DNA of 64,000 nucleotides from the human T2T-CHM13v2.0 reference genome, Homo sapiens: the NCBI RefSeq assembly GCF_009914755.1, contig NC_060928.1; one strand, given 5' to 3'. The position numbers and the translations under genes are program-made. The notes under the pieces were generated by a model. The model was not told where the DNA came from and ran no database searches. It worked only from the letters and a program-made list of their open reading frames with translations. This document shows positions 6,360 to 64,000 of the stretch, piece by piece (within the stretch, counting starts at the first letter, position 1; every line of letters begins with the position of its first letter).

Positions 6360-7520
<1,161 letters not shown>

Positions 7521-10505: not shown

Positions 10506-10604
10506 GCGCTCGGCTCGGCGGCTGCGGTCCCGGCGAGCCTGCGCGGACCTGGCGCTCCCCTCCCCCGCCGGCCCCGGCCCCGCCCCCGCCTTGCTCGCCC
10601 CGCC

Positions 10605-10617
10605 CCGGAAGTGACGT
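10605..10617 (+). promoter_or_regulatory. Composite ETS-CRE motif CCGGAAGTGACGT (GABPA + CREB type)
   Basis: Exact overlapping ETS core CCGGAAGT and half-CRE TGACGT, as found in housekeeping and bidirectional CpG promoters. Confidence 0.7.
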
Positions 10618-10910
10618 ATAGCACGCCCCGCGGGCCCTTGAAAAGGCGGCGCAGACGAGCAGCCGCGTCAGAATGCTTCTGGGAGTTGGGGGGTGGGTTC
10701 CTTTCTGTTGCTAGCTTGTAGGAGAAGCTGGGCTGTAGGAAGTTTATTTGCGGGGGGGTCTTAAAGACGCTGAAAGTACTGGCGGGCTTTGGTGGGGGTC
10801 TGGAAAAACCTCTCTGTACCTGTGACCGCGTTGCGTGGCGGGCGCTCCCCGGCCTCTCCTTTTTGACCGGTCCCGGGCGTTGCCCAGCCGCCAGTCCTCC
10901 TGCTCGGGTT

Positions 10911-12120
10911 TTGTAAGCAGGAGAGGGATGCTTTTTACGTCTTCTTAAAGTACGGTTAAGTGCCCTTGCTTGAAGTAGTTGCTGGCAACAAGAACGTAGG
11001 GGTTACTCTTTGTTGGGCCTGAACTCGTGCTTTTTCTCTCAAAAGTTGAGCTTTTGAAAGGCAAAAAAGGCGTGGGGGATGGGGGAGCTGTCGGTCTTAA
11101 GGAAGTTAAAGGTTATTTCCTAAGCAAAACAAGTCTCACTCCTAAAACCAGGGTAGTGGCTCAGTTGTGGCGGGAGAGCAGGGGCTGTAAAGTGTCCAAG
11201 TTTCTAGTCTCATCTTTCAGTAGGATGGGTACAAGCTTTCCCCTTGGGGCTCTGGGGGCTGGGAGGGTTGTAAAAGTGGGAGAAAGCAAAGTATTTGGCG
11301 GGGTGCGGGCGGGTAGCTGAATGTTGTTGTAAGTGGAAGAGGAATGCTGTTGGCGTCCTTCTCTAAGCACGGTTAAGTGCTTTTTCTTGAAGTAGTTGCT
11401 GGCAACAGGAACGTAAGGGTTACTCTTTGTTAGGCCTGAACTCGTGCTTTTTCTCAAAAGTTTAGCTTTTGAAAGGCAAAAGTGGGGGTGGGGGCGCTGC
11501 TGCTTTTAAGGAAGTTAAAGGTTATTTCCTAAGAAAGCAAAACAAGCCCCACTTTTAAAACCCGGGTAGTGGGTCAGCTGGAGAGCAGGCGCTGTGAAGT
11601 GTACAAGTTTCTAGTCTCATCTTTCAGTAGAATGGGTACAAGCTTTCCCTCGGGGCTCTGGGGGTGGGAGGGTTGTAAAAGTGGGAGAAAGCAAAGTACG
11701 TGGGTGGGGGGTAGCTAAATGTTGTTGTAAGCGGGAGATGGATGCTTTTGGCGTCTTTTTTTAAGCACGGTTAACTGCCCTTGAAGTAGTTGCTGGCAAC
11801 AACGTAGGGGTTACTCTGCTGGGCCTGAACTTGTGCTGTTTCTCTCTCTCAAAACTTAAGCTTTTTAAGACGCAAAGGCGTGGGGAGAGGGGTAGGGGAA
11901 CTGCTACTTCTAAGGACGTTAAGGGTTACTTCAGAGCAAAACAAGCCCCACTTCTAAAACCAGGGCAGTGGCTCAGTTGTGGAAGGGAGAGCAGGGAATG
12001 TGAAGTGTCCAAGCTTCTAGTCTCGTCTTTCAGTAGCGTGGGTACAAGCTTTCCATTGGGGCTCTGGGGGCTAGGAGGGTGGTAAAAGTGGGAGAAACCA
12101 AAGTACTTGCGGGTAGCTAA
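10911..12120. repeat. Three tandem diverged copies of a ~400-bp unit (10911-11326, 11327-11724, 11725-12120)
   Basis: Each copy starts ttgtaag and shares acggttaa, gaagtagttgctggcaac, gggtacaagctttcc, taaaagtgggagaaa and gggtagct. Confidence 0.95.
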
Positions 12121-13359
12121 AAACTCTGAAACCCACGCTGTGAGCGGTTCCTGCTTCTCTGAAAGGTCTGTTCTGCTTAAGGTTGTATCAAGGTTAGTCT
12201 CTTGCTACCTACTTCCGTAGAGCAGTCTCTCGTGGCTCACCTGGGTTAGTGGCCATGTTGCCTGTCTCCTATTCTTCCTAACCTTGTGTGTTCTCCAGGT
12301 AGCTGAGTGATCCATCCGAAGTAAAATATTCCTGAGCTTGTCTGTAGGGGCTCCAAGTTTCATGAAGTAAAAGCTAGTCTTGAAAACGGCCCATTAGGGT
12401 CCTGGATGACAGTCTCCGGGTCACTTAGACTCCGTTGTCCGCCTCCCCTCATCTGTATCATCTTTGCCTTGGGTACTGGCTTCGGAGGGTGTTTTCCTGA
12501 AACTCTTACCTGAGATCTACTTAGCTGACTCCTGTGTCCTTCAGAAGTACTTAATTGCTCAAATGTCAGTTGATGAGTGTCACCGGTCTCATTTTAAATT
12601 GCAACTTCAACTCCTTGCAAACACTGCTTCTCATTCCCGCGTTCCCTAACTTTAACTCTCAGGAATAACCCTGACACCTGGAAGATGCTCCTAGGGATGA
12701 CCCCACTCCCCACCCACAACTGTTAATCAGGAAATAACGGATATGAAAGTAGCTCTGCGAACTGAGGAGCCGTGGAGAATGTACAAAACAGATTCCTAAA
12801 GTAAGATACGCAGGCCCGGCTTGTAGGCCGCTGCATCTGCTTTGATAACTTAGAACTCATCAAATCACCTTGAGACCCTTAAAACAAATGGTATAATTGC
12901 ATTCACAGGTAGTGCATTCGTGTAACAAGATTAAGAAAACGAAGGACCAACTTCAAGCTCTTGCAAGCTGGTAACCTTTACACTCGTGCATAAAGCCTTG
13001 CTGGAGTTGACACTGAAAACTAAACAGTCGAACTTGAGTAAAACATATCCAAACTCCCAGCTGCTGGGCTCTACAGCTTATTTTTAGCTTGAAAGTTACA
13101 TGTTGGAGCTGCAGAGGCTTTATGGTGGTGGTGGGGGAGCTGTTTGTTCGTAGTCACTTGAGTCTATATGAACGTGGCAGGAAATCTGAAGGATTTGAAA
13201 GGAAAATGGGAAACACCGGGGTGTTCCAGGATTTTCCCTGTGGGGCGAGCTCAGTTTGGTGTTGTCAGCTGTGGGAGCTTTAACACTTGAACCGTCTTTA
13301 CTGTGGGTCTAGCCTATTCGTTGGGCTCCCCTAGTCACCACTCATGCCTTCGTGTATCC

Positions 13360-20961: not shown

Positions 20962-21889
20962 TGAAGGGGCGGGGTTGCCCCTCCACATCCGTGGGTGTTT
21001 CTCGTTAGGTGGAACGAGAGACTTGGGGGGAAAAAGAGAAAGTATAGAGAAATAAGGGGACCCAGGGAACCAGCGTTCAGCATATGGAGGATCCTGCCAG
21101 CCTGAGTTCCCTTAGTATTTATTGATCATTTTTGGGTGTTTCTCAGGGGGTTGTGGCAGGGTCATAGGATAATAGTGGAGAGAAGGTCAGCATATAAACA
21201 CATGAACAAAAGTCTGCATCATAGACAAGGTAAAGAATTAAGTGCTGTGCTTTGGATATGCATACACATAAACATCTCAATGCCTTACAGAGCAGTATTG
21301 TTGCCCGCATGTCCGACCTCCAGCCCTAAGGCGGTTTTCCCCTATCAGTAGATGGAACATACAATCGGGTTTTATACCGAGACATTCCATTGCCCAGGGA
21401 CGGGCAGGAGACAGATGCCTTCCTCTTGTCTCAACTGCAAAGAGGCATGCCTTCCTCTTATACTAATCCTCCTCAGCACAGACCCTTTATAGGTGTCGGG
21501 CTGGGGGACAGTCAGGTCTTTCCCTTCCCTCGAGGCCATATTTCAGACTCTCACAGGGGGAGAAACCTTGGACAATACCTGGCTTTCCTAGGCAGAGGTC
21601 CCTGCGTCCTTCCGCAGTGTTTGTGTACCTGGGTACTTGAGATTAGGGAGTGGTGATGACTCTTAACAAGCATGCTGCCTTCAAGCATCTGTTTAACAAA
21701 GCATATCTTGCACCGTCCTTAATCCATTTAACCCTGAGTTGACACAGCACATGTCTCAGAGCACGGGGTTGGGGGTAAGGTTATAGATTAACAGCATCTC
21801 AAGGCAGAAAAATGTCTTAGTACAGAACAAAATGGAGTCTCCTATGTCTACTTTCTACACAAAGTAACAATCTGATCTTTTTCCCCACA
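20962..21889 (-). mobile_element. HERV-K (HML-2) solo LTR5 (older LTR5_Hs/LTR5B type), 928 bp
   Basis: Minus strand runs TGTGGGGAAAA...GGGGCAACCCCGCCCCTTCA, with TATAAAA (~21370-21376), AATAAA (21118-21123) and the characteristic LTR5 U3 sequence. TSD is imperfect (agatt/aaatt). Confidence 0.95.
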
Positions 21890-22609: not shown

Positions 22610-23022
22610 CCAGTAATTGGGGTTCTCCAGAGGGAGAAAGATACACTATAGTTTTTTGTAAGACCTTGTGGTCATGTAAGTTAGTACTTAATAGGGTGTC
22701 TGCAAGCTGAGGAGCAAGGAGAGCCAGTCAGATAGCTCTGAAACCCTGCAGAAAACTGAAGAACTTGGAGTCCAGTGTTCGAGGGCAGGAAGCATCCAGC
22801 ACAGCACAATGATATAGTCTGGGAGGCTAGGCCAGTCTCCTTTTCACGTTTTTCTGCCTGCTTTTTATATTAGCTGGCAGCTGATGAGTGTGCCCACCGG
22901 ATGTGAAGGGTGGATGTTCCTTCCCCAGCCCACTGACTCATGTTCTTTGGGCAACATCCTCAGACACACCCAGGATCAATATTTTGTATCCTTCAATCAA
23001 GTTGACACTCAGTACCATCACA
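22610..23022 (-). mobile_element. MLT2A (HERV-L) solo LTR
   Basis: tctgcaagctgaggagcaaggagagccagtc...actgaagaacttggagtcc...caagttgacactcagtaccatcaca matches the reverse complement of MLT2A. Confidence 0.85.
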
Positions 23023-25089: not shown

Positions 25090-25352
25090 CCCCAGTGACT
25101 GACGTGGACTCTCCCCAGTGACTGACGTGGACTCTCCCCAGTGACTGACGTGGACTCTCCCCAGTGACTGACGTGGACTCTCCCCAGTGACTGACGTGGA
25201 CTCTCCCCAGTGACTGACGTGGACTCTCCCCAGTGACTGACGTGGACTCTCCCCAGTGACTGACGTGGACTCTCCCCAGTGACTGACGTGGACTCTCCCC
25301 AGTGACTGACGTGGACTCTCCCCAGTGACTGACGTGGACTCTCCCCAGTGAC
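25090..25352. repeat. Perfect minisatellite, 23-bp unit ccccagtgactgacgtggactct, ~11.4 copies
   Basis: Directly visible. Produces the repetitive ORFs at 24776-25410. Confidence 0.98.
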
Positions 25353-28099: not shown

Positions 28100-28375
28100 G
28101 TAGCATCCCAAGTGATGTAGCATCCCAAGTGATGTAGCATCCCAAGTGATGTAGCATCCCAAGTGATGTAGCATCCCAAGTGATGTAGCATCCCAAGTGA
28201 TGTAGCATCCCAAGTGATGTAGCATCCCAAGTGATGTAGCATCCCAAGTGATGTAGCATCCCAAGTGATGTAGCATCCCAAGTGATGTAGCATCCCAAGT
28301 GATGTAGCATCCCAAGTGATGTAGCATCCCAAGTGATGTAGCATCCCAAGTGATGTAGCATCCCAAGTGATGTAG
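28100..28375. repeat. Perfect minisatellite, 17-bp unit gtagcatcccaagtgat, ~16.2 copies
   Basis: Directly visible. Produces the repetitive ORFs at 27678-28458. Confidence 0.98.
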
Positions 28376-32125: not shown

Positions 32126-33352
32126 TCTGGAGGTGGTTCTAGCTGGAAGACTTATTCCTGAGGCTGCTGAGTAAAATCCCCTATCACATCTACACTCCAT
32201 GTGGCGATTACATGATTGAAATTAGAAGGGAAGGTGGGGTTATCTGCTTCACAAGCCTCCACCCACATTGTTCAGGTGTGTTCTGACTTCATGGTAAGAC
32301 TCAATCGTTGGTAACAAAATACCTTAAAGGATCCATCAGTCCTCAGATCTGATACCTCAAGGATCAGACTTGAGAATCAGGTCCTAACTTGGCCATGAAT
32401 TCTCAGATGTCCTTACTCGGTGACTTCAGATTTTGACGCGGATGATTATCCAGTGGCAAACAGAACAGGCTGAGTCTACTCAGTGTCTCTCATTACTTAC
32501 GACCCTCATTTCTGCACTGAACAGGTGGCACCTGGCTTCACTAGACTTGGAGTTTCTGGGGAGTGTGCAGTTTCCTTAGCTGTTCCTAAGCCTGGAGTGG
32601 TTCTCTGATGCTTATCCTTGTGATTCTTGGATCTTTCCCGGCCTCGTCAATCCTGGGGGTGGGGGAGTCTGTTTTCATCCCACTCCTCAAAACTTTTGAG
32701 TGCTCTTAGGTGTTATTAGTGACCAGTGGTGTTACAGGCTTATCTTTCTTACAGAAGGAGGGTGTCTCTAAAATATGTGGGTGGAGGCCTCTCGACACCC
32801 TAACTCCCCTAGACTGACACTCTGGGGGTCCCAGGAGCATCTTGGGTGGTCACCTTCAGCCTGACAGGCAGCTGCTACTAGAGGCAGGATGTCCTAAACA
32901 TGGGAGCTTCTTAGAAACAGGCCCCCTCTCCTGGTGGCCACCCCTGGGTAAGAAGCTCCATGTGCTTATCTGAAGGTGCACAGTGGGTCCACGAGGATCA
33001 GCCATGTGGAAGAGGGGGAAGGTTCCTATGGCCTGTTGACTTCACCCTAGGACTGACTATGGGGTGCCCTTAACGCTCCTGGGCATGTACCCCTCCTGTA
33101 GACCAGAGTGTCTCCAAAGAGTTGGTATCTAGCACTCTTCTGGGAGGCTTGAAGACTTGCAGAGCGCTTCTGAATTGGAATATGCTCCTATAGAACTCAC
33201 AAGACTGTCTTGAACTGAGGGGGAAGGGGCTGCCAGTCCTTGTGCTAGGATGTCCCATGGAGATAGACTGTTGGCAGGGAATGTGAAGAGGACTCGGCCT
33301 CTTGCCCTTGCCGAAGGGGGGGGCATTTGGGCCCCACAAATGGTAACTTCCG

Positions 33353-33513
33353 TCCAGCCTCCCTGCGCGTCTCCAGCCTCCCTGCGCGTCTCCAGCCTCC
33401 CTGCGCGTCTCCAGCCTCCCTGCGCGTCTCCAGCCTCCCTGCGCGTCTCCAGCCTCCCTGCGCGTCTCCAGCCTCCCTGCGCGTCTCCAGCCTCCCTGCG
33501 CGTCTCCAGCCTC
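33353..33513. repeat. Perfect CpG-containing minisatellite, 19-bp unit tccagcctccctgcgcgtc, ~8.5 copies
   Basis: Directly visible. Absent from the paralogous position (~49660-49690). Confidence 0.98.
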
Positions 33514-36124: not shown

Positions 36125-36536
36125 TATACTAGTCAGGGTTTCCTAGAGGAACAGAATAGGATGGATACACACATATAAAGGGGAGTTTATTAACTTACAC
36201 AACCATAAGATCCCCAATAGGCTGTCTGCAAGCTTGAGGAGCAGAGCCAGTCCAAGTCTCAACTGAAGAACTTAGTCCGATGTTTGAGAGGTTAGGAAGC
36301 ATCCAGCATGGGACAAAGATGTAGGCTGGGGGTCTAGGTCAGTCTCACCGTTTCATTTTTCCTGCCTGCTTTATATTTGCTGGCAGCTGATTAGATTGTG
36401 CCCAACAGATGAGAAGGGTTGGGTCTGGTTTTCGCAGCCCACTGACTCAAATTTTTATCTGGCAACACCCTCACAGATATACTCAGGAACAATAGTTTGC
36501 CTCCTTCAAGTTGACACTTCAGTGTTAACCACCACA
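36125..36536 (-). mobile_element. MLT2A (HERV-L) solo LTR
   Basis: tatactagtcagggtttcctagagg...aataggctgtctgcaagc...caagttgacacttcagtgttaaccaccaca is an essentially complete MLT2A in reverse. Confidence 0.88.
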
Positions 36537-36629
36537 ATGGTTAATGCTGTGGCAAAGTGACAATATCTATGCGTACCATAAATTATCCCACCCAGTAGCA
36601 AATTCTGCAGGGCAGCTCCTCTGGAGACT

Positions 36630-37080
36630 ATTTTTCCCCCCTCCCGGAAGGCTGTAAACTGAGAGAACTTTGAACAAATTCCCAACATAGCAGCCCGCAT
36701 CATTTCAGCATGTCTTTTAACGCTGATTGCTTTTCACCTTCTGGCAGTTTCCCAGGCTCTGGGGTTTAGTAGGCACATCCCCTTCACATCAGGATCATCT
36801 CCATGCTCATACCCAGTCTTTGAACCAGTTCCTGGCAATCAGCTTTCAGCTCAGGGCTTTGAGCTGCAGATGCTCCGTCGTCCTCTCTCTCCTGAGCAGG
36901 TGAAGAATCTTGACTTGGAGTTGGTGGTTCCACTTCTTCAGGTGGTTCATGACTGAACTGCTTGGGCAGAATAGGCCAGATCACCTTAGGTTGTACAGAT
37001 TGTATTGGTCGAGGCTGATTGATCTTCCTCACTGACTCATTTCACACAGATGAGTCTCAGTAAAGGAGTCAACCGCCGGA
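36630..37080 (-). pseudogene. Processed pseudogene of the GAGE/PAGE cancer-testis family (PAGE1/GAGE-like)
   Basis: ctgtgtgaaATG at 37040, then intronless PRPIQSVQPKVIWPILPKQFSHEPPEEVEPPTPSQDSSPAQEREDDGASAAQSPELKADCQELVQ. Continues (frameshifted) KTGYEHGDDPDVKG...EGEKQS, stop ~36717, GAGE-type 3'UTR (GAAATGATGCGGGCTGC...TTTACAGCCTTC) and a decayed tail. Has an early in-frame TGA and frameshifts. Confidence 0.92.
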
Positions 37081-38681: not shown

Positions 38682-38838
38682 TCTTGAATAGGGATTGGGT
38701 GGTGGATTTGTCTAAGGGATGGTGGCTTTATGGAGGTCTTAATTGAAGTCTGTTACAGGTCAGGACCATGGAGTGGATGGCTGTCAATGGGCCTATTCTA
38801 GGAGCGCTCGGGTGGCCGAGTTACACCTGGCTATAAGT

Positions 38839-38985
38839 CATCCCGTGCACCTGACTAAATGCATCCCGTGCACCTGACTAAATGCATCCCGTGCACCTGA
38901 CTAAATGCATCCCGTGCACCTGACTAAATGCATCCCGTGCACCTGACTAAATGCATCCCGTGCACCTGACTAAATGCATCCTGTG
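38839..38985. repeat. Perfect minisatellite, 23-bp unit catcccgtgcacctgactaaatg, ~6.3 copies
   Basis: Directly visible. Confidence 0.97.
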
Positions 38986-39787: not shown

Positions 39788-40062
39788 GGTGTGGGGCACA
39801 GTGGCTCACACTTGTGATCCCAGTGCTTTGGGAGGCTGAGGGGGGTGGATCACTTGAGCTCAGAAGTCCGAGACCAGCCTGAGCAATGGGTAGAGGTTTT
39901 GCCAAAAACTAGCCAAGTGTGGTGGTGCATGCCTCTGTAATCCTACCCAGAAGGCTGAGGCAGGAGGATCTCTTGAACCCAGGAGGCAGAGGTTACAGTG
40001 AGCCGAGACTGCACCAGTAGCACTGGACTCTAGTCCAGGTGATAGAGCATGATCTTGTCTCA
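39788..40062 (+). mobile_element. AluJ element lacking its poly(A) tail and most of the A-rich linker
   Basis: gtggctcacacttgtgatcccag...ggatcacttgagctcag...gaggctgaggcaggaggatc...cttgtctca, followed directly by non-A sequence. Confidence 0.9.
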
Positions 40063-41666
40063 TTCTCTGGTCAAAGGCAGGTGTGGACTTTTACTGGCCA
40101 AGTAAAGATCAGACATGAGGTCTGTTATCAATTAGTCAGCTTGAACCAGCTGCCAAAGTAACGATTTCTGTGCTGGAAAGCTTTCCTGGCTTCTACTCAC
40201 TTGGGACAGAATAGAAGTTGTACTTTGAGGGAACTGTCCAGGGTAACTTAAAACATGAGCCCTTGGAGCATCAGACATTAGAAAGCCCGTTCACATTTTT
40301 AAGACTGGGGTCCTGGCCCAGGATATGGCTAGATGTAAAGGCAGGAATGATCCACTCACTTTTCTTTAACCATTGCCCAGGCAGGGAAGATCCCAGCAGC
40401 AATCAAAGGGGGGAGGGTCTGCAATGATGGCTGGACTCCCACTGGGCCTGGGGCCTTATGAACATGCCGTTATCCATCTTATGTCATGAGAATCGTCTTC
40501 CCAGAGTAGATTCTCTGCAAGTCTCTTTACAGCTGGAGTGACTTCACTGTCAAGCCAGCTGGAGGGGAAAGGTAGAACCTGGGAGTGAAAAGGCTGCAGG
40601 CAGAGGTTCAGTGAGCAAAATTGCTTACTGCTGCATGAGGCTGTGACTGACTCTATAGTCTTCAACTCTTGTCTAAACGAGACTAATTCCTCAGTGGATG
40701 ATGAACGTGTATTGGTGTGAAGGTCTTCACCTCATTATGGAGCTTCCCAAAGCATGGGGATGGGAGGCCTCAGTCTTACTGGCTCAATGGCTGGAAACAT
40801 TGTAAATGGCCTTTGTCAAGTGATGAGAGTGGTGGATTGTCGTCCACCACTGTTATCTGAACATACTTGTTCTCATCCATCTCAGGGTGATAAAAAGAGC
40901 ATGCCATGACTACAGAAAGCTCCCCCTAGTCCCCATGGTGTTCTGAATCTGGCAAAGTGGACAAAGCTGGGGGAGGCTTAGCCATCCCCTTTTTTTATAC
41001 AGACATGATCCTCAAAACAGTCCCATCAAATGTGGCCTCTGTTGTCAAATTTATTATAGACCTTCCCAGACTACTTTAAGGAAAAGTACTTATGACTCTG
41101 GCTAAAGAACTGTCAAGTTTTAGACTTCCTAGGTGAAAACACCAGTGATACAACGTAGAAAGAAAAGCCTGCAGTGAGGTGGTATTGCCTAGGGAAGACT
41201 GGGTGGTCCCTGGAATTCAACTGTTATAAGCTGAATAGTCAGTTGCAAATCACGTCTGTCCTGGTAAACCCAGGGGACTTAGGCTAACTCATACTCGTGA
41301 GGGAACAAAGATTCCCTCTCACAACTTGAGTAAAATAGTGGATGTTGTAGCTTTCAAGATGTCCCAAGATGCCACTATGATGTCAGTATCGGAGAGGGAA
41401 ACAAACTCACTCCTGCCTCCGATGTCTATTTGCAGGCCCTTAAAGGTGACAGTGCATTGCAAGGAGTGGGGGCCCTCGGGAAAACTGAAGCAGAGGTGGC
41501 CCCACCCCTCAGCTGAGAGCGAGCTTCAGCAACCAGGGTGGCAGTTCTTCATTGCTGGGTGGTTCACCAGCACAGAGAATCAAATTCTGCAGGCATTGCC
41601 TCTACTCCTATATAGTTTCCAAAAGCTGATTCTTTGGTCTTTTGGTGTCAAAGCTGCCAGCTAGAT

Positions 41667-48779: not shown

Positions 48780-51700
48780 TTCTCCCTCATCCAGACATCC
48801 TCAGAGGGAACTGACTGTTCAGAACCAACAGAATAGTTTTTCATCCCACCTTTCAGAAGTTAGGCTTGAGTGCTTTCCTCCCACTTTTTGGGAGGCATGA
48901 TGGACTAGCTGCTGAAGGCGTACCTTCCTTGCTTAGTTATCGGGAAGGAGGGGCATATTCCATAATCTTCGCAGATGAAACCCTGTCCTTGACATCCTAA
49001 CCTCCCTGGGTGGCAATGTTTCGGGGGAAACTGGGAGGTTTTGGATAGTGGTCCCAAGCTTTATCTTCCCTGGTGAGAAGAGGACCCAGAAAGGGCTGTG
49101 GAAGCCATTGAAGTATTTCTGACCAAGATAACTTGATAGTCATTGTGGGCAGCTGCTAATAGAGGCAGGATGTCCTAAACTTAGGAGCCTTCTAAAAACA
49201 GGTCTGCTTTCCCTGGGCCACCCTGGGAATTAGAAGCTCCATGTGCTCATCTGAAGGCAGAGTGGGCCCATAAGAAGTGGCCCTGCGGAAAAGGGAAGGT
49301 TCCTATGGCCTGCTCATCTACCCCTTCCTCCCTAGGACTATAGGGTGCCCTCATCACTTCTGGGGACATCACTTCTGGGCACGTACTTCCTGGAGGACCA
49401 GAGCATCTCCAAGGATTTGGTGTTTAGTGCATTCCCTAGGATGAAATCCCTTCTGATGGGAATCTGCTCCTGTAGAATGATCCCTCAAGAGCAGCCTTTG
49501 GACTGGAGAGAATGGGCTGACAGTCTTCATGCTGCAGAGCCCAGGGGAGATGAATCTGTTGGCAGGGAGACTGAAGAAGGGGCTGAATCTCTTGCCCTCC
49601 CAGAGGGAGAAGCAGTCATGGGTGGGGTGGGGGCGGGGCCCGTAGGACTCTAACTTTCTTCCAGTGCCCGCCGCTGGGCTCCAGCCTGATCCCTAGAATT
49701 CTGCAGTGGAGTGCTGATTGTGCTGAGGCTGGGCTGTGTGATTCCCCTCTTAAGGATGGTTGGCTGGGTGGGACTACAAAAGCAACTTACGGGCCAACCA
49801 GGGTTTTCCTAACATCCTTTGACACATCAGTTCTGCTTTTCTGAACTTGCATGGTGAATTGTGAGGAAAGACTAAACTTGTACAAAATCCTTTGACTTAA
49901 ATGTGCAATGAAGACTATAGAAGATGTGATGTTTTCTATTAGACAAATGTCTCATCTGTTCCAGGTGGAAGTAGATAGGAGTCATCACCTGAACTCGCTT
50001 GTTACTTGACTATGCTGTTATTGAGTACGTTTTAGTGTCTTAAATACAATGAAAGTCATTCTCAGAAAACATTAACTGTCGGCTTTCTCCCAACTGAAGA
50101 GCTTATGGGCTTTCCAACAAGACCATCTCTGCTTGTCAAGACACCTTGGAATGGAAAGTGAATGCTGCTCTGCCTCATTTCCCATCTTTTATTTCTAATC
50201 CCTAAAGGAAGGGGACTGAACTACAGAAACCACTCTATCCTGTTGTTGCATGACAAGGGGAGCCTGATCTGGACAACTGTTTCTTAGCATTTCCAACTTG
50301 GAGTTTGATATGTCTTAATCCTTAGGAGCTACATGTGGCCCCAGGAGGACTGAGCCAGCAGCAGGTGCATTGGATGAAAGTCGATGCAGGGGGGAGACCA
50401 GGGAAGAAGCAAACTCCATGACAGGAAGAGGGGGGTTCAGCTTTCAGGTACAGTGTCTGATCACTGGCAGTCAGCACTTGACCTGTTCTAGAAATGGCTC
50501 CTGGGGCTGCTGTGATCATGCTTGTAGACAAAGGAGCCAGCCTGGCTTCCTGGGAAAAGGACTAGAAGCCTTGGGTTCCTGGAGGTGGCCTTGAGGACTC
50601 TAGGGATAAAGGGATCTGATGGGAATACTTTACCTTGGAATGCAGCCGGAGGAGCCATCCTAGGCAGTGACCCGGGAATCCTTCAGTGTACTTTGTGAAA
50701 GAGGCTGTCTGCTGTCATAACTGATCTCTTCCATACTTGGTGGTTTTTCCTTCCCAGGCACTAGTATTACATACATCTTGTTTCTTAAGTCACTACTTGG
50801 TAAGAGAAGCGTTGCCTCAAAGCAGGTAATTCTGTGTACTGTGAACCTAGAGCCACCAGGGAAGGCCACACTTCTCTAACGGTGAAGTGAGTCTGCCCAG
50901 GCAGTCATCTCCAGTGATGGGTCCTGGAGGCTCTGCCCTCTGTGGCCTGGGGTTGCTGCTGTGCCCCTTACAAGACAGCCTGCTGTGTGTGGCTGCCATC
51001 TCCTAAACTCAAGTTTGGCTCATTTTCTTTGAGCATGGGTGATATATCTTTATCCTTTCCTAGGAGAAGGGGTGACTTCTAAATAATAAAGTTCCATTGT
51101 TGCTAGGGCACATGATCTTTGTTGGGTGGGGTGATGTCAGAATGCTAAGTTCCTAAGAACTTACCATTTCATTGTCTGTTATGATGCCTCATGGCCACCA
51201 GGTGGTGCTTAAGGACCCTCAGCCAAGGGCCAGAATGGAAACAAGCTGATGGCTCTTGGAACTCCTGGACGGATTTGAGGAATACACTGGGGGAGGAGTT
51301 CTTGTTACTCTTATCATTTTCATTAGATTCGTCTGGATCCTGTGTGAACTAATGCCATCCCCCTGAACAAATGGCTTCTGAAATGTGGACAATTCCTGCC
51401 TGGGGAGGCAGCCATGGATGAGCAGGAGAGCCCAGGTTCTCCTGCCTGGCAGGAGTCTGAGCTCAGTGCTTAGAGGCTGCTCTGCGCACCCCACCCCCAC
51501 CCCCACCCCCACCCCCACCCCCACCCCCACCCACCAGGCCGGGCACCGTGCTAAGCAGGCAAATGTTCTCAGTGTTAGGCGAGCATCCCATGTTACAATC
51601 ACGTGATCCCAGGTACCAAGTTTGTTTGCAGTAATTTTCACGGAAAACATGAACACAATCAGCTTGGCTTATGAACTATTTTTTGCCGTGGAAATACGTA

Positions 51701-54700
51701 CAAAGCCTGCTTTGTTCTGTAGACTAGTATCACATGACATTGGTTAGAATGTAAACTTGAAAAACATCCAACAGACTTAAACTCCTTACAACATAATTTA
51801 TACAAAGAGTTTATAGTCTTCAGGACTGAGAACAAGAATAAAAGACCGTTTTTACTTGGTAACTGTATTGCTTAAATTATAACATTTCGTAACTACATTA
51901 ACTATTGTCAAGTAAAGTGGAAAGAACACAAACCATGATGGACATGCTTTTACATAAAAGCACCTCCTAGGCAACTCTGCCCTTCAGGAAGTGTTGCTCA
52001 CCTAGAAGGCTGGCACTGCTGTGTGAGCGGTGTTTCCTAGTTATGTAGGCTGGCCTGATGAGCTATGTATGGCAGCGCTAGCAGGACCTGCTCGAAACGA
52101 CAGAACTCTCCACAATACTTTGAGAAATGATTCCACATCCTAAAGCCCAAAATCATGAAAATTGTCTCAAAGTTGGGGCTTTTTTCAAAAACTCAGGTCA
52201 ACCATGCCATTCAGCTGCTCCTTTGTGGGTCCCCTCAGATTCTGTGGGTCCATGTCCACAGGTGACTCGTTCAAAACACTAGTCCCAGGCAGCTCTCAGC
52301 AAAGGTGGTGGGGGTTGCACACCTGCTCCAGCACAGAGGCCTCCTGGGGCTCTTGACAGGGCAACAGCTGGGGCTGCATCTCCCTTGACATCTCCTATTT
52401 TCAATGGAGAAGCGTCAGGTGACTATGCCCTAAGTGTATGCAGGCCAGGCAGATGTTGGGGTGCCCTTCCATCAAGGTCTGGTGGGGCTTTCTCTGAAAG
52501 GATATATGGCTGCTGTCCTGGTCCGTGGAGATGACTTTGTAGTAGCTGCCTTAGAGACGCCTTCATACAAAGGCTGAGCAGTGGGGTCCTTCATATTCTT
52601 GTATTAGTTATATCTGCTGAGGAGGAGACAATGTCTGAGGCAAGGACTGTGCCAGAACCTTTGTCTTCTGAAGCACAGATTACTTGGGATTTGGTAATGG
52701 CTGACACTTGGGAGTTGTTCTTGTTGCTTTGGTGCTTGTGTTGTGCCGTGTGCTCTAGCTGAGCCTTCTTGGGACATCACTGTCCTATCAGAAGAGATCA
52801 GTAGCTCACAGTCTTCCTGAGGTCAGCATTGTTACATGCAAGCTCTGCAGAGTCCTTTTTCTCCAGCTTCATGTGGATGGCTGTGGGATGACCTGTGGGA
52901 TAGTGCTCCCAGAAGCCCAGCACCATTTCATAGAATTGCATTCCTGGCCCCAGGAGTAAACACTTTTGCAGACTTCTCATCCCAAAGCTGCTGGACTTGA
53001 GACCTGGGTTGCTCTGCAGCTGCTTGCTGCTGCATATCTTGCCCAGGGGGCACTTGTGGAGATGAGATCACTATTGCAAAAGGTATATGCCACAGTTGAG
53101 AGCATAAGAACTCTCCATTACTTGGGAAACACTGGCCATGATGCTGGAACTGAAGTGAAGGTACCTGTTTCCCTCAATCCTTGTGACTCATACATTAGAA
53201 CCTGTTCCTGAAAGACTAGCTTCTGCTGGTAATTGAGGCTGCTAGGGATGACATCCCCATTCTGCTGTCCTTGAAATGGTGAGAGAAGCCCTTTTGTTGC
53301 TCCTGCTGCCTCTTTACCTGCACACCATGAACACAGTGCAAGAGGGAAGGGCCTTGCATGCTGGCTTTCTTGCATCTCAGGCTTGAGAATACTGACATGC
53401 AGAAGGATAAGGAAACATTACTGACATCTAGAAAGGCCACTCTGTCACCTGAATATCCCAAATCCCAGCTTGGTATCCTCTTTAACCCATGGGGCTACAG
53501 TTATTTGGGCCATCTTATTTGCTGGGATTCCCCTGTATTACTACAGAAGAGTGGCCAGCTCCACCCAGTAGAACTTCCTGGGCACGAGAGTTCTGCTCGG
53601 TGTCATCAGTGGGAGATTCCACCTGTTTTTTCTGGATTAAAAATAGGTGACTTGGGCAGAGGGATCATGGTTTCTTGGCAGTGTAGATCGTATGTGCCTC
53701 TAGGTGGTAGTATGGCTCTTGTTTTGAAACCAGTTGTTTGTTACGTAGGACAAGAGACTTCGCTGGCCACTTTTTTTTTGGTTGTAAAATCGGGGTAAGG
53801 GTTCTCTGCAAATGACTGAAGTATTAAATGACTGAAATATTCTTAGTTGATTCTTCATAAACTTATGCTTTGGTTTTCCACTTCCTCTTCCCCATCTTTC
53901 TTCATTGGGATTATCTTCAGAGATCTTGTGTTCAGATCCTGACTGAGGCTGACAGGCCCACAGGGTTGTTGGGCTTGACTGCTAATCACCACATGCTCAT
54001 GTGTGTGGCCTAGTGACAATACCTACACATAGCAAAGTTATCCTACTTGTTTAAAGAATTCTGAGCTGCTTCTCTGACGTGTGGAGACACAAGTTGGCTT
54101 TCTGCCTCTTGCTCTTACTCCTTGGGAAACCAGACTCACTGTCCGAGACTCAAACTTGGAAAAAGGAGCCTACTGACTCAGAAGTGGATGGACAGGTGTG
54201 CACAGGACCTGTGCTCAGCACAAGAAAGTGAGGCTACATTCTGTCAGTGTGTCTTCCCCATCCTTGTGCCAGTGTGCTTACCTCTCACCAGGAGATGAAA
54301 ATTTCTAGCTGGGCTACAGAGGCGGCGGTCCCAAATCTTTCTCTCCGCCTCCTTGCACCATGTTACATTTACTGCTACTGATGCTTAATGGTGGCTTTGT
54401 TGTTCAGTTGTCCAGGAAGTAGATGCTGAGAGAACTAGAAATGCAAAAGACCTAGAATGAAGAGGGAAGCTGTCAGATCATAATGTGAATCAGCCAGTCC
54501 TGCCAGTCCAGTAGGGAGCACGAGAGCAGGATTCACTCAGGAATTCCACATGAGGTAGAAATGGCTCGACTCAGTTTGGCTTGGGGCCATCCCAAGAATA
54601 ACAGCAAAGAGCTTGGAGCCCTTGGGTAACCACACTCCACAGCTGGACAGCAAGTCTGATGAAATGGCTGACAGGTTGGCATGGTTGTCAGTTGATGGGC

Positions 54701-55500
54701 AGCTATGATTTTCAAATCCTAAACTGCAGCTGCAGTTGGTCTGGAAGGACCATAAGATTATCTGTTTTCCTAATGTCAGTCCTCAGAGTCCCTCACACTT
54801 GGCCAATACTTGTCAAAGTTGCTTGTTTCAAAGGTGACCAAACAACCACCTAATGTCTGAGCCCCTGCTGGCCTGTCCTTATCAGGCAATGTTTGCTGTA
54901 ATGGCCTAGCTACTCCTGACCCATCAGGCATTGGGGGCACCAAGAAATGGCCCAGTGTAGCAGCAGTTCCTGCTCACCTTCCGGCAAAAGGAGCCAAACA
55001 TGACCTGGCAGTGTAGTTGGGTCCTCTGGAAGTATCCTGGAGCTACACTGTCTAGGTCTGCTTTGGACCTACGTTTGGGAAGTAAATGCCTTCTAAACTC
55101 ACTATCCGGGGTCATTGTGGGTAATAAGGGAGAAGCATCAGAGAACAGTTGTTGGTTTAAAGTAGGTACTGCAACTGGAGTGCATTGTGCTTGTCATAGG
55201 TTGTTTCCTGGCAGCAAACTGTCTCTTGAAACTGCTGGTGAACTGAGGCAGGCTACGGAAGAGGCTCTTGCAAGCCTGACTGTTCGCTCCTTTGAACCAG
55301 GCTGAGACTACTTCCGTGGGTGGTTTGTGGTGGGGTAGTTGAGCGCTTGGGGAAGGACACTTTAAGCCAACACTAAGTTTGTATAAAATATTCAGATTAA
55401 ATCCCATGAAGAGAGAAAGGAGGCAGGATGGGGCTGAAGTCAGACTGGGACGTAAGACTTGTCAGTCTTGCTGAGCCTGGTGGAGAGGGTCCAGAGCATA
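48780..55500. repeat. Copy B of the ancient local duplication (paralog at ~32600-38520)
   Basis: Same anchors, direct orientation, offset 16.2-17.0 kb. Outer boundaries are approximate. Confidence 0.88.
51488..51533. repeat. (CACCCC)n simple repeat, G-quadruplex-prone on the minus strand
   Basis: About 7 copies of cacccc. Confidence 0.9.
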
Positions 55501-60129: not shown

Positions 60130-61085
60130 CTTTGTCGTTAAGTGCCATAGATATGCCCTTCTTCCTGATGTTCTATACCTACGGGAGGCTTTTCATCAAG
60201 ACCTCACTTAACACACTAGAGGCACAACGTAGCACCTTCAAGGTATGGGGGTGAAATTGGAGGCAGGAAGCAAAAATACACTGTTGCCTCCTGGCTTTCC
60301 TGGAACTCAGGTGTGTCCAACATGAAACTGGAGATGAGTGAACCCAGACACCTGTGTCTGCAGGGATACTTCTCCCGTGGATCCCACACCACCCAACTCC
60401 ATAGGCCTCTTGTGGCGATTGCACTGCCTCTGGTGTCCTGGCCCTGGTTGTGATTCTATCCCCACAAGGCCAGCAAAGTCTGAGGTGAAAGTTGTCACCA
60501 CGATTGTATAAATCCTCTTGAGAGAAGCAGGCTCTTCCAGGGCAGGCAGTTCCTCTGAGGAAGATGAATCTGCTCTGAATTTCACAGGGATGTTTCCCTT
60601 GTCCACTTCAGACAACCTTTGTGATGTCTGGATTCCAGTCTCAGCTCTGCTGGGAGCATCCTTTTGATGTGGGTAGGCAAAGGTGCAGATATGTATGCCT
60701 CTAACTTTTGGCCTTTGCTCAGCTCTAATAGTTGGCACTGGGCCTACAGAATGTCCTGGTGAAGCAGGTTAACCGGTGGTGGTTTTTGATGGTAATCGGT
60801 GAGCTTGGTATACTGAGGCTTTGGTCAGTTACTGAGCTCTGCCCTCTTTGGGTGGAGTGTTGTCACCTATAACAGACCTTCTGTTTGGTCTCCTTTGCTG
60901 GCGTTCCTGGTAACATGGTTATGCCTGGGGAATTAGAAGCCTGCTGTCCCTCTTCAGTTCCTACTGACGGTTGTTCAAACATGGGATTATCTTCCTCGAT
61001 CTCTCTGAAGGTTCCACTCCTTGCCTCCTGACTTCTCCATACTCAAGTGGAGGTTGATCCAAGAGTCTTTTCTACCTCCCAATGC
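60130..61085 (-). pseudogene. DPPA4P: DPPA4 processed pseudogene
   Basis: Intronless, frameshifted match along the whole protein: SMEK..KEW (ATG 61040), EEGQQASN...LPGTPAK, PPPVNLLHQDIL*AQCQ...KGQKLEAY, FAYPHQKD, VVTT, RTPEAVQSPQEAYGVGWCGIHGRSIPADTG.WVHLQFHVG, FLLPASNF, KSL. Original stop at ~60173, then 3'UTR-like sequence. The exact pseudogene number is unknown to me. Confidence 0.93.
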
Positions 61086-61318
61086 TGGTTGGCATTTCTG
61101 TAAGCGTCCTGAAACCCCCAGGTATTGTCCACCACCTAGATGTTAAGGCATGAGGTAGAAACTCTAAGGCAAAACTCAGATGTATCCCTGACATCTCTGC
61201 TGGTGCAGGAAGGCCTGCCATGGGGAAGATGGCAGTGTAAGGCAACTGGCCTGGAGTCCAGTCAGCAGAGACCTGCCACTGGCTGTGGGTTGATCAAGTG
61301 TCCTTCAGTGTCCCAGAC

Positions 61319-61792
61319 TGCCAAAGACCAGCTTGGTTGTGGAGACCCTAACCCAGTGGCACTAGAGGAATTAAAGACAGAGACACAGGAATGAGAAGTG
61401 GGAATCAAAGAGCTGACAGCCTTCAGAGCTTGAGAGTCAGTCTGACCCATACATTTGACAAAGTCAGTGATAAGCATAGTTTCTACATATTACAGACTAG
61501 CTAAAAGCATTCCTTATGGGAAAGAAAGCATTCTTAGTGAGGAGCAGAGAAACATGCCCTGGCTGATTATCTGCAGCAAAAGCATGTTAAGGCACCGGCA
61601 GCTCCTGCTATTGTTTGTGGTTTGAGTAGTTTTCCTGCTCTGGGTGGGCCAGGTTTTCCTAGCGCTGCTCCAGTAAACCAACCTTTAGCAGTGTGTGTGA
61701 TAGCCATCATGAGCATGTCACATTGCTGCAGAAATCCTGTTTATGGCCAGTTTAACACCTGTTTATGACAGGGTTAGGGCTTGCTACCAGCA
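61319..61792 (-). mobile_element. MER9B-type 3' LTR of an HML-3 (HERV-K9) provirus
   Basis: Minus strand TGCTGGTAGCAAGCCC...ACTGGCCATAAACAGGATTTCTGCAGCAATGTGACATGCTC...CCACAAACAATAGC...GGGTCTCCACAACCAAGCTGGTCTTTGGCA. Preceded by a polypurine tract AAAAAGGAAAAGGGGG (~61796-61811). Confidence 0.88.
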
Positions 61793-64000
61793 AGGCCCCC
61801 TTTTCCTTTTTGTAAAGCGATAAAGGCATAGGCAGCTTTGTCATGGTGGGCTACTTCTCGCAAGATTCGGGATCCGCATCTGTAGGCTACAGACTACACA
61901 GATTAAAAGCACAGTCATAGAAATCAGAGTCTCCAAGTGTCTTGATCCATTTTAATGGGTTAATAGCTGCTAATCCATCTGCAGCTCCTTCAAGCACTGG
62001 CATTAGCGTCAGATGTTCCTGAGAGGCTTCTGAAATACTTGTTCCTTCAGTTTTGCAATATCTGAAGAAAATATCCAGTATGACCTTTTAAATGTTAACT
62101 TTTTCCCACTCATGCTGTTTCATTTCACAGATGAGGAGTAACGTAAAAAGAAGTACTCCAGTCACATTGTAACTGTACTCTATATTCTAACTACTCAATC
62201 TCCTAGCCACATTAGTTTGTTGGAGATCTCGTTGATGTGATTAGCTAGTTCGTGGTCTATTTGGGAACTCCACAGCAAAGTAGAATTTTCTACCAATTAT
62301 TTACATAGTCTGCTGTTTGTACTGTGTAATGCAAAGCAACTCCAGCTACTGTGGCAGCAGCTGTGACAACCTTTTGAAGAATTTTAGTAACAATATGCAC
62401 AGGAGAGGCTTCCCAAGGACAGGAAAGCTTTACGGGTATCCATACTCCTCCTCGGGCTCTTACCACTAAAATAGAATGATCAGTATTATACAAGGAAGAA
62501 TTAACACAAGAAAACTACATTCCTGACAAGTTACATGATTAGGGAGATCAAGTTTTAAAAAACCCACTCTACCAACAGGAAAGGCAGATGGACACAACTC
62601 TGTATCCAGACTGAATCGTTAGGCCAATTCTACTATGTAATTAGGATTATATTGGGCTGGCTTAATAAATTTCCCTTCCCAAATCTTTTTTTCAGTGCCA
62701 TTAAGATTTTCCATAATTCCTTACGTTTAGCTCCTACAGCAGGCCATATCATTTGGGGTTGCGGTACCACTATACCATATGCCCAAATAATAGGAACCCT
62801 TGCTGTACTTAGTGTCCACCATCAGATTATTTTTTGTTTAGATGCAGAGTGACCACTACCTGCAGATTGAGAGGTGGGGCCTCATAGATGCCCCTTTAGG
62901 GGACCAATCAATAACTCCATATGAATCATTATGCAACACCTCTGCCTGCGTTATGATATGATCGTCTGAAATGCCTTCATTTTTTCTGACCATGTCCAAT
63001 CCACTTTACAGATAGGTTTTTGAGGGTGGTAAACCTTGGCTACAGGAGCATAATCATTGTAATAAATACTAAGATTGGAAAGCATATGTAAGTGCCGCAG
63101 AGATACGTTCAGGCACTATCCCCAGCCAAGATTGGGAGGTAAACGCCCATTGGCTTTCCCTAAGCAAATAGGTAAATGCTCAAATCCCAACAAGATATTC
63201 ATAATTGTTCCCTCCTCTTGGGGGTGAGACACGCCTCTATCTGTAGAAAAAGGCATCCAAAAGCTATCATTAGTGTATACCTCCACTAGGGGCTCTAAGC
63301 ATATTACTGGCCGTAGAAGTGGTAGAAAAGGAATATATGCCCAATATAATTGTTTCAGCAGTTACTGGGGCGGGGTGGGGGGAGTACTCATAGCAATGGT
63401 GAGCACAGCCGTCATAGCTATTATTAGATTATTCATCATAGCTGGTCATTCCGCCACCTTCAGATTTTCTTCTCCCATCTTTGTCAACTTCTTGATGTGG
63501 CCCCAGGTGAGTGGCTGTGCCTGGTGAGTGTTGCTTGCCGGGACTGGTGTCTTCCTTACTGTCAGTCTCGACATGGCTGCAATCGGGGGTCCTCGGGTTC
63601 CTTCCCAAATCTCTTCCTCAGCATCTGGCTCATAAGGTTTCAGGTACCTTGATGGTATCCAAGTTGGCTGCTGGTTTTGGCCTGGAGAAACACAAGCATA
63701 ACCTCTACCCCATGTTATTTTACCTATTTCCTAACTTTGTTATCAGACCTCTCCACCAAACCAGTCGTCTTGCTTCTGTCTTTGCCACTGGTTTCTATAG
63801 ATGTTGTTCAGCTGCTTGATAGCATCTGGCCTTTAGGCAGGCTCAGAAAATTTAAAGTCAATAATGCTAGATTCAATTGTATACTTGGAGTTCCATAGTC
63901 ACTGTTACCCGCAACCCCACACTTTGTTTTTGTAATTGCTGTTTTAGGGAGAGATTGATTCTACAATGGCTTGTCCTTATGAATTATGGGATGCCAGTAA
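61793..64000 (-). mobile_element. Defective HML-3 (betaretrovirus-like) internal region: env remnant (~61830-63575) and 3' end of pol integrase; runs off the window end
   Basis: Integrase TGIP.NS*GQAIVE (63960-63998). Env leader PLTWGHIKKLTK...[65 protein letters not shown]. Many stops and frameshifts. Confidence 0.92.

What the first reader, a model, noticed from the sequence alone, without database searches (positions are those of the whole stretch)
10600..64000. Candidate divergent germline transcription unit (pachytene-piRNA-cluster-like) acting as an antisense trap
Seen: right of the WDR1 promoter nearly every recognisable retro-insertion is on the minus strand (LTR47-like, MLT1, L2, LTR5, two MLT2A, L1, GAGE/PAGE, UBTF-like, DPPA4, HML-3 provirus). 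The one plus-strand insertion I found (AluJ) has lost its A-tracts. There is no coding gene over 53 kb, and MYB/RFX-bearing repeats lie at the proximal end. Known: pachytene piRNA precursors are long A-MYB-driven transcripts, often divergent from CpG promoters, and primate clusters carry antisense pseudogenes and LTRs. Inference: a plus-strand transcript would produce small RNAs antisense to HERV-K, HERV-L, GAGE/PAGE and DPPA4 RNAs. I cannot tell from sequence whether this locus is already catalogued.
Basis: partly seen in the sequence, partly recalled or inferred. Interest (0 to 1): 0.9.

Follow-up and report, generated by a model that had tools for sequence, protein, structure and literature searches.

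The report
Known WDR1–ZNF518B germline piRNA cluster

Summary
A 2026 human oocyte study names a unidirectional, plus-strand piRNA cluster of about 320 kb between WDR1 and ZNF518B. [quoted passage not shown] Earlier papers describe a testis piRNA cluster transcribed divergently from the WDR1 promoter in marmoset and human, and a syntenic oocyte cluster across mammals. Window 10.6-64 kb is its first ~53 kb.

My own checks:
- G+T strand asymmetry flips at the shared promoter (minimum at 10673). It is positive in 50 of 53 1-kb windows to the right and in 0 of 10 inside WDR1.
- Minus-strand orientation was confirmed by tools for a GAGE retro-copy, a Dppa2/4-like fragment and a HERV-K-type provirus end. 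An LTR5-like solo LTR was called minus by recall only.
- The single Alu is on the plus strand and lacks its A-tracts.
- LTR47, MLT1, L2, MLT2A and L1 could not be tested because no repeat library was available. No UBTF/HMG match was found.
- My census (4 minus, 1 plus) is not significant on its own.
- X-box (RFX-type) palindromes occur once per copy of a 407-bp tandem repeat. MYB sites are not above chance.

The parts
10229..10377 (-). WDR1 exon 1. Its 5' end marks the left edge of the shared divergent promoter.
   Evidence: Hub annotation given with the finding; sequence read.
10200..10910 (.). CpG-rich shared promoter region. The point where strand asymmetry changes sign (10673) lies inside it.
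   Evidence: Sequence. GC fraction 0.599 in the 10001-12000 window. Minimum of cumulative (G+T)-(C+A) at position 10673.
10911..12106 (+). 407-bp tandem repeat, 2.9 copies, 79% matches. Each copy has one exact X-box-like palindrome (10978-10989, 11395-11406, 11789-11800).
   Evidence: TRF. Pattern search gives 3 exact matches, all here, with 0.49 expected at up to one mismatch. X-box consensus count: 3 of 3 window matches fall here. RefSeq enhancer features 11609-11708 and 11793-11882 overlap it (hub annotation).
10600..64000 (+). First ~53 kb of the plus-strand piRNA precursor transcription unit. It continues about 270 kb beyond the window.
   Evidence: Literature. G+T excess on the plus strand in 50 of 53 1-kb windows, mean S +0.120, and in 36 of 39 windows after recognised elements and arrays are removed.
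20962..21889 (-). LTR5-like solo LTR (HERV-K HML-2 type), antisense to the precursor.
   Evidence: Sequence read. Family and orientation rest on a recalled consensus, not on a tool. It coincides with NCBI-masked stretches 20990-21855 (hub annotation).
36755..37038 (-). GAGE/PAGE-family processed pseudogene, antisense to the precursor.
   Evidence: Pfam GAGE, E 2.3e-17. Profile positions 3-77 and 78-100 lie in two frames, so it is frameshifted and has no intron.
39789..40063 (+). The only Alu in 10.6-64 kb. It is in the sense orientation, with its A-rich linker and A-tail eroded.
   Evidence: Rfam Metazoa_SRP, 28.2 bits, E 0.0016, plus strand. Direct match to the Alu at 6652-6924. Alignment.
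60247..60768 (-). Dppa2/4-like retro-copy fragment (DCR domain at 60247-60363, inside and just past ORF 60310-60768).
   Evidence: Pfam DCR, E 1.8e-4 and 2.6e-5, 24.7 bits. Both are below the curated cut-off of 27 bits.
63128..63718 (-). 3' part of a HERV-K-type (betaretrovirus-like) provirus: integrase C-terminal domain followed by env, read leftwards. The rest lies beyond the window.
   Evidence: Pfam IN_DBD_C, E 1.4e-8, and HERV-K_env_2, E 2.5e-11. Repeated in the read-through with X at stops. The HML-3 subgroup was not testable.
22690..23013 (.). One member of a repeat pair.
   Evidence: Self-blastn, 73.6% identity over 337 columns, direct. Family not testable.

Best explanation
Window 10.6-64 kb is the promoter-proximal sixth of the catalogued WDR1-ZNF518B piRNA cluster.

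Shown in print: RNA polymerase II starts in the CpG-island promoter shared with WDR1 and transcribes the plus strand for about 320 kb. The transcript is processed into piRNAs from one strand only. In human oocytes these are PIWIL3-type short piRNAs and PIWIL1/2-type long piRNAs. In marmoset and human testis the locus is reported as a cluster divergent from WDR1. In hamster oocytes most piRNAs of the syntenic cluster depend on MOV10L1.

Shown here for five insertions, and in print for L1 and ERV over the whole cluster: retro-insertions lie mostly on the minus strand, so the piRNAs are antisense to the RNAs of those elements.

Inferred: these piRNAs guide slicing or silencing of ERV and L1 RNAs, and possibly of GAGE/PAGE and DPPA2/4 mRNAs. 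The 407-bp X-box array may contribute to germline promoter activity. A-MYB dependence is not shown.
For: Literature:
- PMC13111593, passages and Fig. 8 legend: cluster at chr4:10115601-10436958, + strand, hg19. It gives 34.05% of uniquely mapped oocyte piRNAs, is unidirectional, and has abundant antisense L1 and ERV insertions.
- PMC4105748, passages: in marmoset testis, piRNAs come from one strand and WDR1 mRNA from the other, from one promoter.
- PMC5648030, one passage: the same arrangement in human testis, listed among pachytene clusters.
- PMC10964541, passages: piC-ZNF518B-WDR1 is among the top five syntenic oocyte clusters in 11 mammals.
- PMC8437802, legend: MOV10L1 dependence in hamster.

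Sequence:
- S (GC skew plus TA skew) is above 0 in 50 of 53 1-kb windows to the right of the promoter (mean +0.120) and in 0 of 10 inside WDR1 (mean -0.131).
- The sign change is at 10673, about 300 bp from the WDR1 5' end. 36 of 39 windows stay positive after recognised elements and arrays are removed. The young minus-strand elements themselves have S near 0.03.
- This is the polarity expected from transcription-coupled mutational asymmetry in the germline, which is established knowledge recalled by me.
- Minus orientation of the GAGE, DCR and provirus matches.
- No coding gene.
Against: - I saw passages and legends only. I saw no figures and no supplementary cluster tables. Two held supplements of PMC5648030 contain neither WDR1 nor chr4, and one file was not searchable.
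- The paper's coordinates are hg19 and the window is T2T. I could not lift them over, so the link rests on the gene names and the strand.
- My own orientation census (4 minus, 1 plus) is not significant.
- AATAAA is not depleted on the plus strand (9 plus, 6 minus), so there is no sign of sense poly(A)-signal avoidance at that level.
- MYB motifs are at chance level.
- The hamster cluster is called female-specific, which sits badly with a pachytene-testis label.
- A replication origin at the CpG island could produce a similar skew switch.
Confidence: 0.92

Rival explanations
1. The antisense bias of insertions is a passive by-product. Any long Pol II unit loses sense-oriented LTR and L1 insertions because they bring splice and poly(A) signals, as happens in ordinary introns. 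On this view the cluster is not an evolved 'trap', and its antisense piRNAs are a side effect. This rival concerns why the bias exists, not whether the cluster exists.
For: Antisense bias of LTR and L1 elements inside genes is established knowledge (recalled). The single sense-oriented Alu has lost its A-rich linker and A-tail, which would fit removal or decay of sense signals. [quoted passage not shown]
Against: PMC13111593 reports that highly productive clusters show an antisense insertion bias specific to L1 and ERV, compared with flanking windows, and links it to repression of those families. AATAAA is not depleted on the plus strand here (9 against 6), so there is no clear sign of selection against sense signals.
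Confidence: 0.35
2. The compositional switch at 10673 reflects a replication origin at the CpG island (leading/lagging strand asymmetry) rather than plus-strand germline transcription.
For: Upward skew jumps at origins that coincide with divergent CpG-island promoters are described in the human genome (recalled). The jump here is large, from -0.131 to +0.120.
Against: The left arm coincides with a gene known to be transcribed on the minus strand. The right arm coincides with a published plus-strand precursor. The two causes are not exclusive, and the sequence alone cannot separate them.
Confidence: 0.2
3. The locus is chiefly an oocyte cluster (PIWIL3 short piRNAs) driven by an oocyte factor. 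It is not an A-MYB-driven pachytene cluster, and the testis signal is minor.
For: It is the top cluster in human oocytes (34.05%) and a top syntenic oocyte cluster in 11 mammals. It is called female-specific in hamster. No MYB motif excess was found, and there are 0 YAACGG sites in 10378-12200. No paper in the library links WDR1, A-MYB and piRNA.
Against: Marmoset MARWI-bound testis piRNAs and human testis data both show the WDR1-divergent cluster, and the human paper lists it among pachytene clusters.
Confidence: 0.45
4. The interval gives only an ordinary promoter-upstream or lncRNA transcript with no small-RNA output.
For: None from my calls beyond the absence of annotation in the RefSeq table supplied.
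Against: Five independent papers report piRNAs from this locus or its syntenic counterpart.
Confidence: 0.02

Closest known systems
piC-ZNF518B-WDR1 (human oocyte cluster chr4:10115601-10436958, + strand, hg19; also the WDR1-divergent testis cluster of marmoset and human)
   Same: It is the same locus, with the same strand, the same divergent arrangement with WDR1, and the same antisense ERV/L1 content.
   Different: Nothing differs in kind, because the window is its first ~53 kb. Some details were not seen in the passages I read: the 407-bp X-box array, the GAGE and Dppa2/4-like retro-copies, the near-absence of Alu, and the skew switch at 10673.
Mouse-type pachytene piRNA genes with A-MYB-bound bidirectional promoters (Li et al. 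2013, as cited in PMC4105748; recalled otherwise)
   Same: A long single-stranded precursor starts at a divergent promoter, and the piRNAs come from one strand per arm.
   Different: Here the other arm is a protein-coding mRNA (WDR1). The cluster is TE-rich with antisense bias and is dominant in oocytes. A-MYB binding has not been shown and MYB motifs are at chance level.
Drosophila flamenco (uni-strand cluster; recalled knowledge)
   Same: It works alike: one promoter, one strand, hundreds of kb, and insertions mostly antisense, so the primary piRNAs are antisense to the elements.
   Different: It belongs to a different phylum, cell type (somatic follicle cells) and protein machinery. There is no homology, so the resemblance is in logic only.
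piRNA clusters carrying antisense pseudogenes (marmoset, PMC4105748 Fig. 4B legend)
   Same: Processed pseudogenes are inserted opposite to the direction of the cluster, as with the GAGE and Dppa2/4-like copies here.
   Different: The genes differ. Targeting of GAGE/PAGE or DPPA2/4 mRNAs by piRNAs from this locus was not found in print (listing only).

Membership tests
Mammalian piRNA cluster (piRNA-producing gene) | Dense, strand-specific, mostly uniquely mapping PIWI-bound small RNAs with 1U bias | not testable with these tools
   No small-RNA data are on hand. It is reported in print for this locus (PMC13111593; PMC5648030; the marmoset syntenic locus).
Mammalian piRNA cluster (piRNA-producing gene) | Long single-stranded precursor from a defined promoter, here divergent from WDR1 | tested here: inconclusive
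   G+T strand asymmetry switches at 10673 and holds in 50 of 53 1-kb windows. This is compatible with plus-strand germline transcription, but replication asymmetry could do the same. Direct evidence exists only in print.
Mammalian piRNA cluster (piRNA-producing gene) | Dependence on the piRNA biogenesis machinery (MOV10L1, PIWI) | not testable with these tools
   It is reported for the hamster syntenic cluster in Mov10l1-/- oocytes (legend).
Mammalian piRNA cluster (piRNA-producing gene) | No protein-coding gene along the precursor | tested here: met
   370 ORFs of 55 aa or more were scanned. Only the GAGE pseudogene and two provirus ORFs pass Pfam cut-offs. The RefSeq table lists no gene.
A-MYB-driven pachytene piRNA gene | A-MYB binding or MYB motif at the promoter | tested here: not met
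   Motif level only. YAACKG occurs 3 times in 10378-12200 against 2.8 expected by length, and YAACGG 0 times. ChIP is not testable. No paper links WDR1, A-MYB and piRNA.
A-MYB-driven pachytene piRNA gene | Expression from the pachytene stage in testis | not testable with these tools
   It is stated for human testis in one passage. The hamster cluster is called female-specific.
Uni-strand 'transposon trap' cluster | Significant excess of insertions antisense to the precursor | tested here: inconclusive
   4 minus (GAGE, DCR and provirus by tools; LTR5-like by recall) against 1 plus (Alu). 9 of 9 self-matches are direct, but from about 4 independent pairs. No repeat library was available. The excess is reported in print for L1 and ERV over the whole cluster.
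RFX-regulated germline promoter | X-box palindrome near the start site | tested here: met
   Three exact copies of one X-box-like palindrome, one per 407-bp repeat unit, against 0.49 expected. Binding was not tested. RFX4 was proposed in general for piRNA clusters, but its motif enrichment was not significant in human (PMC4408798).

The most novel reading that the evidence does not exclude
Three features beyond the published cluster could be functional.
1. The 407-bp tandem array, with one perfect X-box palindrome per copy and lying 0.5-1.7 kb into the precursor, may be the RFX-dependent element that gives this promoter its germline, plus-strand output in place of A-MYB.
2. The near-total absence of Alu (1 in 53 kb), together with the erosion of A-tracts in the one sense copy, may reflect selection to keep the 320-kb precursor free of sense A-rich or termination signals.
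3. The antisense GAGE/PAGE and Dppa2/4-like retro-copies may yield piRNAs that tune cancer-testis and pluripotency genes in human germ cells.
Probability: 0.15. Interest if true: 0.45.

Novelty: already known. Interest (0 to 1): 0.15.

Why it matters
The locus matters biologically: in print it is the largest single source of piRNAs in human oocytes, and it is conserved in position across mammals. That was established before this scan. This check adds three things. It confirms that a reader could infer the cluster from raw sequence. It shows that the transcription unit leaves a clear compositional footprint that changes sign at the shared promoter. It records a few local details (X-box array, Alu paucity, GAGE and Dppa2/4-like antisense retro-copies) that I did not find in the passages read and that could be tested against public small-RNA data.

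Tried and rejected
1. Six-frame Pfam scans of whole 6-15 kb stretches. I replaced them with ORF references and shorter read-through stretches.

2. Poly(A)/poly(T) tracts as a library-free census of retroposon strand. There is only 1 A-tract and 1 T-tract of 10 or more in 53 kb, so this is uninformative.

3. AATAAA depletion on the sense strand. None was seen (9 plus, 6 minus).

4. Small ORFs of 32-54 aa. Only the first 150 of the 349 listed were scanned, covering 37.0-49.2 kb, with 0 hits at E up to 0.001. The other 199 were not scanned.

5. Search for UBTF/HMG box and L1 domains. None was found in the 370 ORFs of 55 aa or more on both strands, nor in the minus-strand read-through of 43.5-64 kb. 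Minus-strand read-through of 10.4-43.5 kb and all plus-strand read-through were not done.

6. Sub-threshold Pfam hits (RebB, DUF2177, OCRE) in ORFs at 24.9-25.5 kb and 27.7-28.5 kb. I rejected them: all are below their cut-offs, have 0 significant stretches, and lie on perfect minisatellites.

7. Rfam at E up to 0.1 over 10.4-64 kb. Only the Alu/SRP match was found, with no small-RNA retro-pseudogenes to add to the census.

9. Supplement search of PMC5648030 for the human testis coordinates gave no occurrences, and one file was not searchable.
Full report
**What was claimed.** It also saw no coding gene, and MYB/RFX-bearing repeats next to the promoter. From this it inferred a plus-strand germline transcription unit of the piRNA-cluster kind that would yield small RNAs antisense to those insertions.

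**Literature: the inference is right and already published.**

A full-text search for 'WDR1' with 'piRNA cluster' returned 8 papers. I read passages of five.
- Hirano et al. 2014 (PMC4105748) describe a new class of cluster in marmoset testis. MARWI-bound piRNAs come from one strand and an mRNA from the other, out of one promoter. WDR1 is the first example given (Fig. 4A legend). They also note pseudogenes inserted opposite to the cluster direction, and they call clusters 'traps' for TEs.
- Gainetdinov et al. 2017 (PMC5648030, one passage) report human testis pachytene clusters transcribed divergently from a promoter shared with a coding gene, 'e.g., BUB1, WDR1 as in marmoset'.
- Hou et al. 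2024 (PMC10964541) name piC-ZNF518B-WDR1 among the five top syntenic oocyte clusters. Together these give 40-93% of piRNAs in each of 11 mammals.
- Loubalova et al. 2021 (PMC8437802, legend) show the hamster cluster between Wdr1 and Znf518b. They call it female-specific and cite its earlier description by Ishino et al. 2021. Most of its piRNAs are lost in Mov10l1-/- oocytes.
- The 2026 human oocyte study (PMC13111593) says the most productive cluster spans about 320 kb between WDR1 and ZNF518B and gives 34.05% of uniquely mapped piRNAs. [quoted passage not shown] The Fig. 8 legend gives chr4:10115601-10436958, + strand, with reads mapped to hg19.

The window is T2T chr4:10,106,001-10,170,000, with WDR1 on the minus strand ending at window 10377. 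So 10.6-64 kb is the first ~53 kb of that cluster. I could not lift coordinates between assemblies, so the link rests on the gene names and the strand. I saw text and legends only, not figures or supplementary tables.

**Check of the observation: orientation of insertions.**

No repeat-family library is on hand, so only protein-derived and RNA-derived insertions could be typed.
- I scanned all 370 stop-to-stop ORFs of 55 aa or more on both strands to the right of 10.4 kb against Pfam. Three pass a curated cut-off, and all three are on the minus strand:
  - GAGE (36787-37041, E 2.3e-17)
  - HERV-K_env_2 (63119-63361, E 2.5e-11)
  - IN_DBD_C (63449-63730, E 1.4e-8)
- Five further hits (RebB, DUF2177, OCRE) are below their cut-offs and lie on perfect minisatellites, so I set them aside.
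- I read the minus strand through with X at stops. The GAGE copy covers profile positions 3-100 in two frames without an intron, so it is a frameshifted processed copy.
- The integrase end and then env run leftwards from 63.7 kb, so the 3' part of a HERV-K-type provirus enters the window from the right.
- A Dppa2/4 conserved-region match lies at 60247-60363. It scores E 2.6e-5 and 24.7 bits, under the cut-off of 27, so it is probable rather than certain.
- The stretch 20962-21889 reads, by my memory of the consensus, as an LTR5-type solo LTR on the minus strand. That is a lead, not a test.
- No HMG-box (UBTF) match and no L1 ORF1/ORF2 domain was found anywhere I looked. The minus strand of 10.4-43.5 kb was scanned only as ORFs, and the plus strand was never read through.
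- LTR47, MLT1, L2, MLT2A and the HML-3 subgroup could not be tested.

**The plus-strand Alu.**
- Rfam at E up to 0.1 finds one SRP-like match in 53.6 kb, on the plus strand at 39912-40063.
- Self-blastn of the window finds only two Alu-like sequences in 64 kb: this one and one in the WDR1 intron.
- Aligned to each other, the cluster copy has its middle A-rich linker cut to five A and has no A-tail. The intron copy keeps both.
As a single case it cannot show selection.

**Is the strand bias more than chance?**
- My census is 4 minus (one of them by recall) against 1 plus, which is not significant.
- In the library-free test, all 9 self-matches further than 1.5 kb apart are direct and none is inverted. 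They reduce to about four independent pairs, and one set is a collinear old duplication.
- A/T-tract counting is uninformative, with one tract of each kind.
Its statistical weight comes from the published RepeatMasker analysis, not from my calls.

**A compositional footprint.**

Define S as (G-C)/(G+C) plus (T-A)/(T+A) on the plus strand.
- S is positive in 50 of 53 1-kb windows of 10.6-64 kb (mean +0.120) and in 0 of 10 windows of the WDR1 body (mean -0.131).
- The cumulative curve has its minimum at 10673, about 300 bp from the WDR1 5' end and inside the CpG island.
- After the recognised elements and tandem arrays are removed, 36 of 39 windows stay positive (mean +0.115).
- The young minus-strand elements have S near 0.03. 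They do not create the skew.
- G+T excess on the non-template strand is the known signature of transcription-coupled mutation in the germline (recalled knowledge). It fits WDR1 on the left and a plus-strand unit on the right.
- A replication origin at the promoter could add to it or mimic it. The sequence cannot tell the two apart.

**The promoter-proximal repeats.**
- TRF finds a 407-bp unit in 2.9 copies at 10911-12106 (79% matches).
- Each copy holds the same exact 12-base palindrome, which fits the X-box (RFX) consensus on the minus strand. These are the only three consensus matches in the window.
- MYB sites are not enriched. YAACKG occurs 3 times against 2.8 expected by length, and YAACGG does not occur.
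- So 'RFX-bearing repeats' is confirmed as a motif statement, and 'MYB-bearing' is not above chance.
- RFX4 has been proposed in general as a regulator of piRNA clusters, but its motif enrichment was not significant in human clusters (Rosenkranz et al. 2015, PMC4408798).
- No paper in the library holds WDR1, A-MYB and piRNA together.

**How it most likely works.**
- Shown in print: a plus-strand precursor is made from the promoter shared with WDR1; piRNAs come from one strand only; in hamster they depend on MOV10L1; and L1 and ERV insertions have an antisense bias.
- Shown here: minus orientation of the GAGE copy, the Dppa2/4-like fragment and the provirus end; the skew switch at the promoter; and the absence of coding sequence.
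- Inferred: piRNAs antisense to these insertions guide PIWI proteins to ERV and L1 RNAs, and perhaps to GAGE/PAGE and DPPA2/4 mRNAs.
- It is open whether the bias is an evolved trap or the ordinary loss of sense insertions from a long transcription unit. AATAAA is not depleted on the plus strand (9 against 6).
- It is also open whether the testis output is A-MYB-driven, given chance-level motifs and the female-specific label in hamster.

**Novelty and verdict.** The cluster, its strand, its divergent promoter and its antisense TE content are all in print, so the finding is already known. A search for 'piRNA cluster', 'pseudogene', 'DPPA4' and 'GAGE' returned 28 papers holding three of the four terms. 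None of the 10 listed looked relevant by title and abstract start (listing only). The GAGE and Dppa2/4-like antisense copies, the X-box array and the Alu paucity may therefore be undescribed details, but they are small. Interest is low at 0.15.

Noticed in passing
window 10600-64000: There is only one Alu in 53.4 kb of roughly 49% GC DNA (self-blastn; Rfam). There is also only one A-tract and one T-tract of 10 or more. This is far below the usual human Alu density (recalled). The 2026 paper says only that Alu is 'not enriched' in the top clusters.
   Followed up: partly
window 32867-38487 and 49148-55461: Collinear direct similarity in six blocks, 65-75% identical, with an offset of 16.2-17.0 kb. 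It is either an old tandem duplication inside the cluster or two copies of a large old element. The GAGE copy and the 36216-36523 repeat lie in the gap of the first copy only. No Pfam domain was found on the minus strand of the second copy.
   Followed up: partly
window 25090-25352, 28100-28375, 33353-33513, 38824-38985: Four minisatellites with 96-100% identical units lie within 14 kb: 23 bp x 11.4, 17 bp x 16.2, 19 bp x 8.5 and 23 bp x 7.0. They create the longest open frames in the interval and the spurious sub-threshold Pfam hits.
   Followed up: no
window 10495-10501 and 10600-10620: Inside the CpG island to the right of WDR1 exon 1 there is a TATA-like heptamer at 10495. About 100 bp further on there is an ETS-like core next to a CRE-like half-site, read by eye (motif names recalled). 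These are possible core elements for the plus-strand start.
   Followed up: no
window 9334-9462 (-): A 5S rRNA pseudogene was confirmed by Rfam at just above the gathering score (39.1 against 38 bits). It matches RNA5SP155 in the table supplied.
   Followed up: yes
window 10600-64000: The hexamers AATAAA and TTTATT are both scarce (9 and 6). The plus strand is not the poorer one, which goes against a simple model of sense poly(A)-signal avoidance in the precursor.
   Followed up: no
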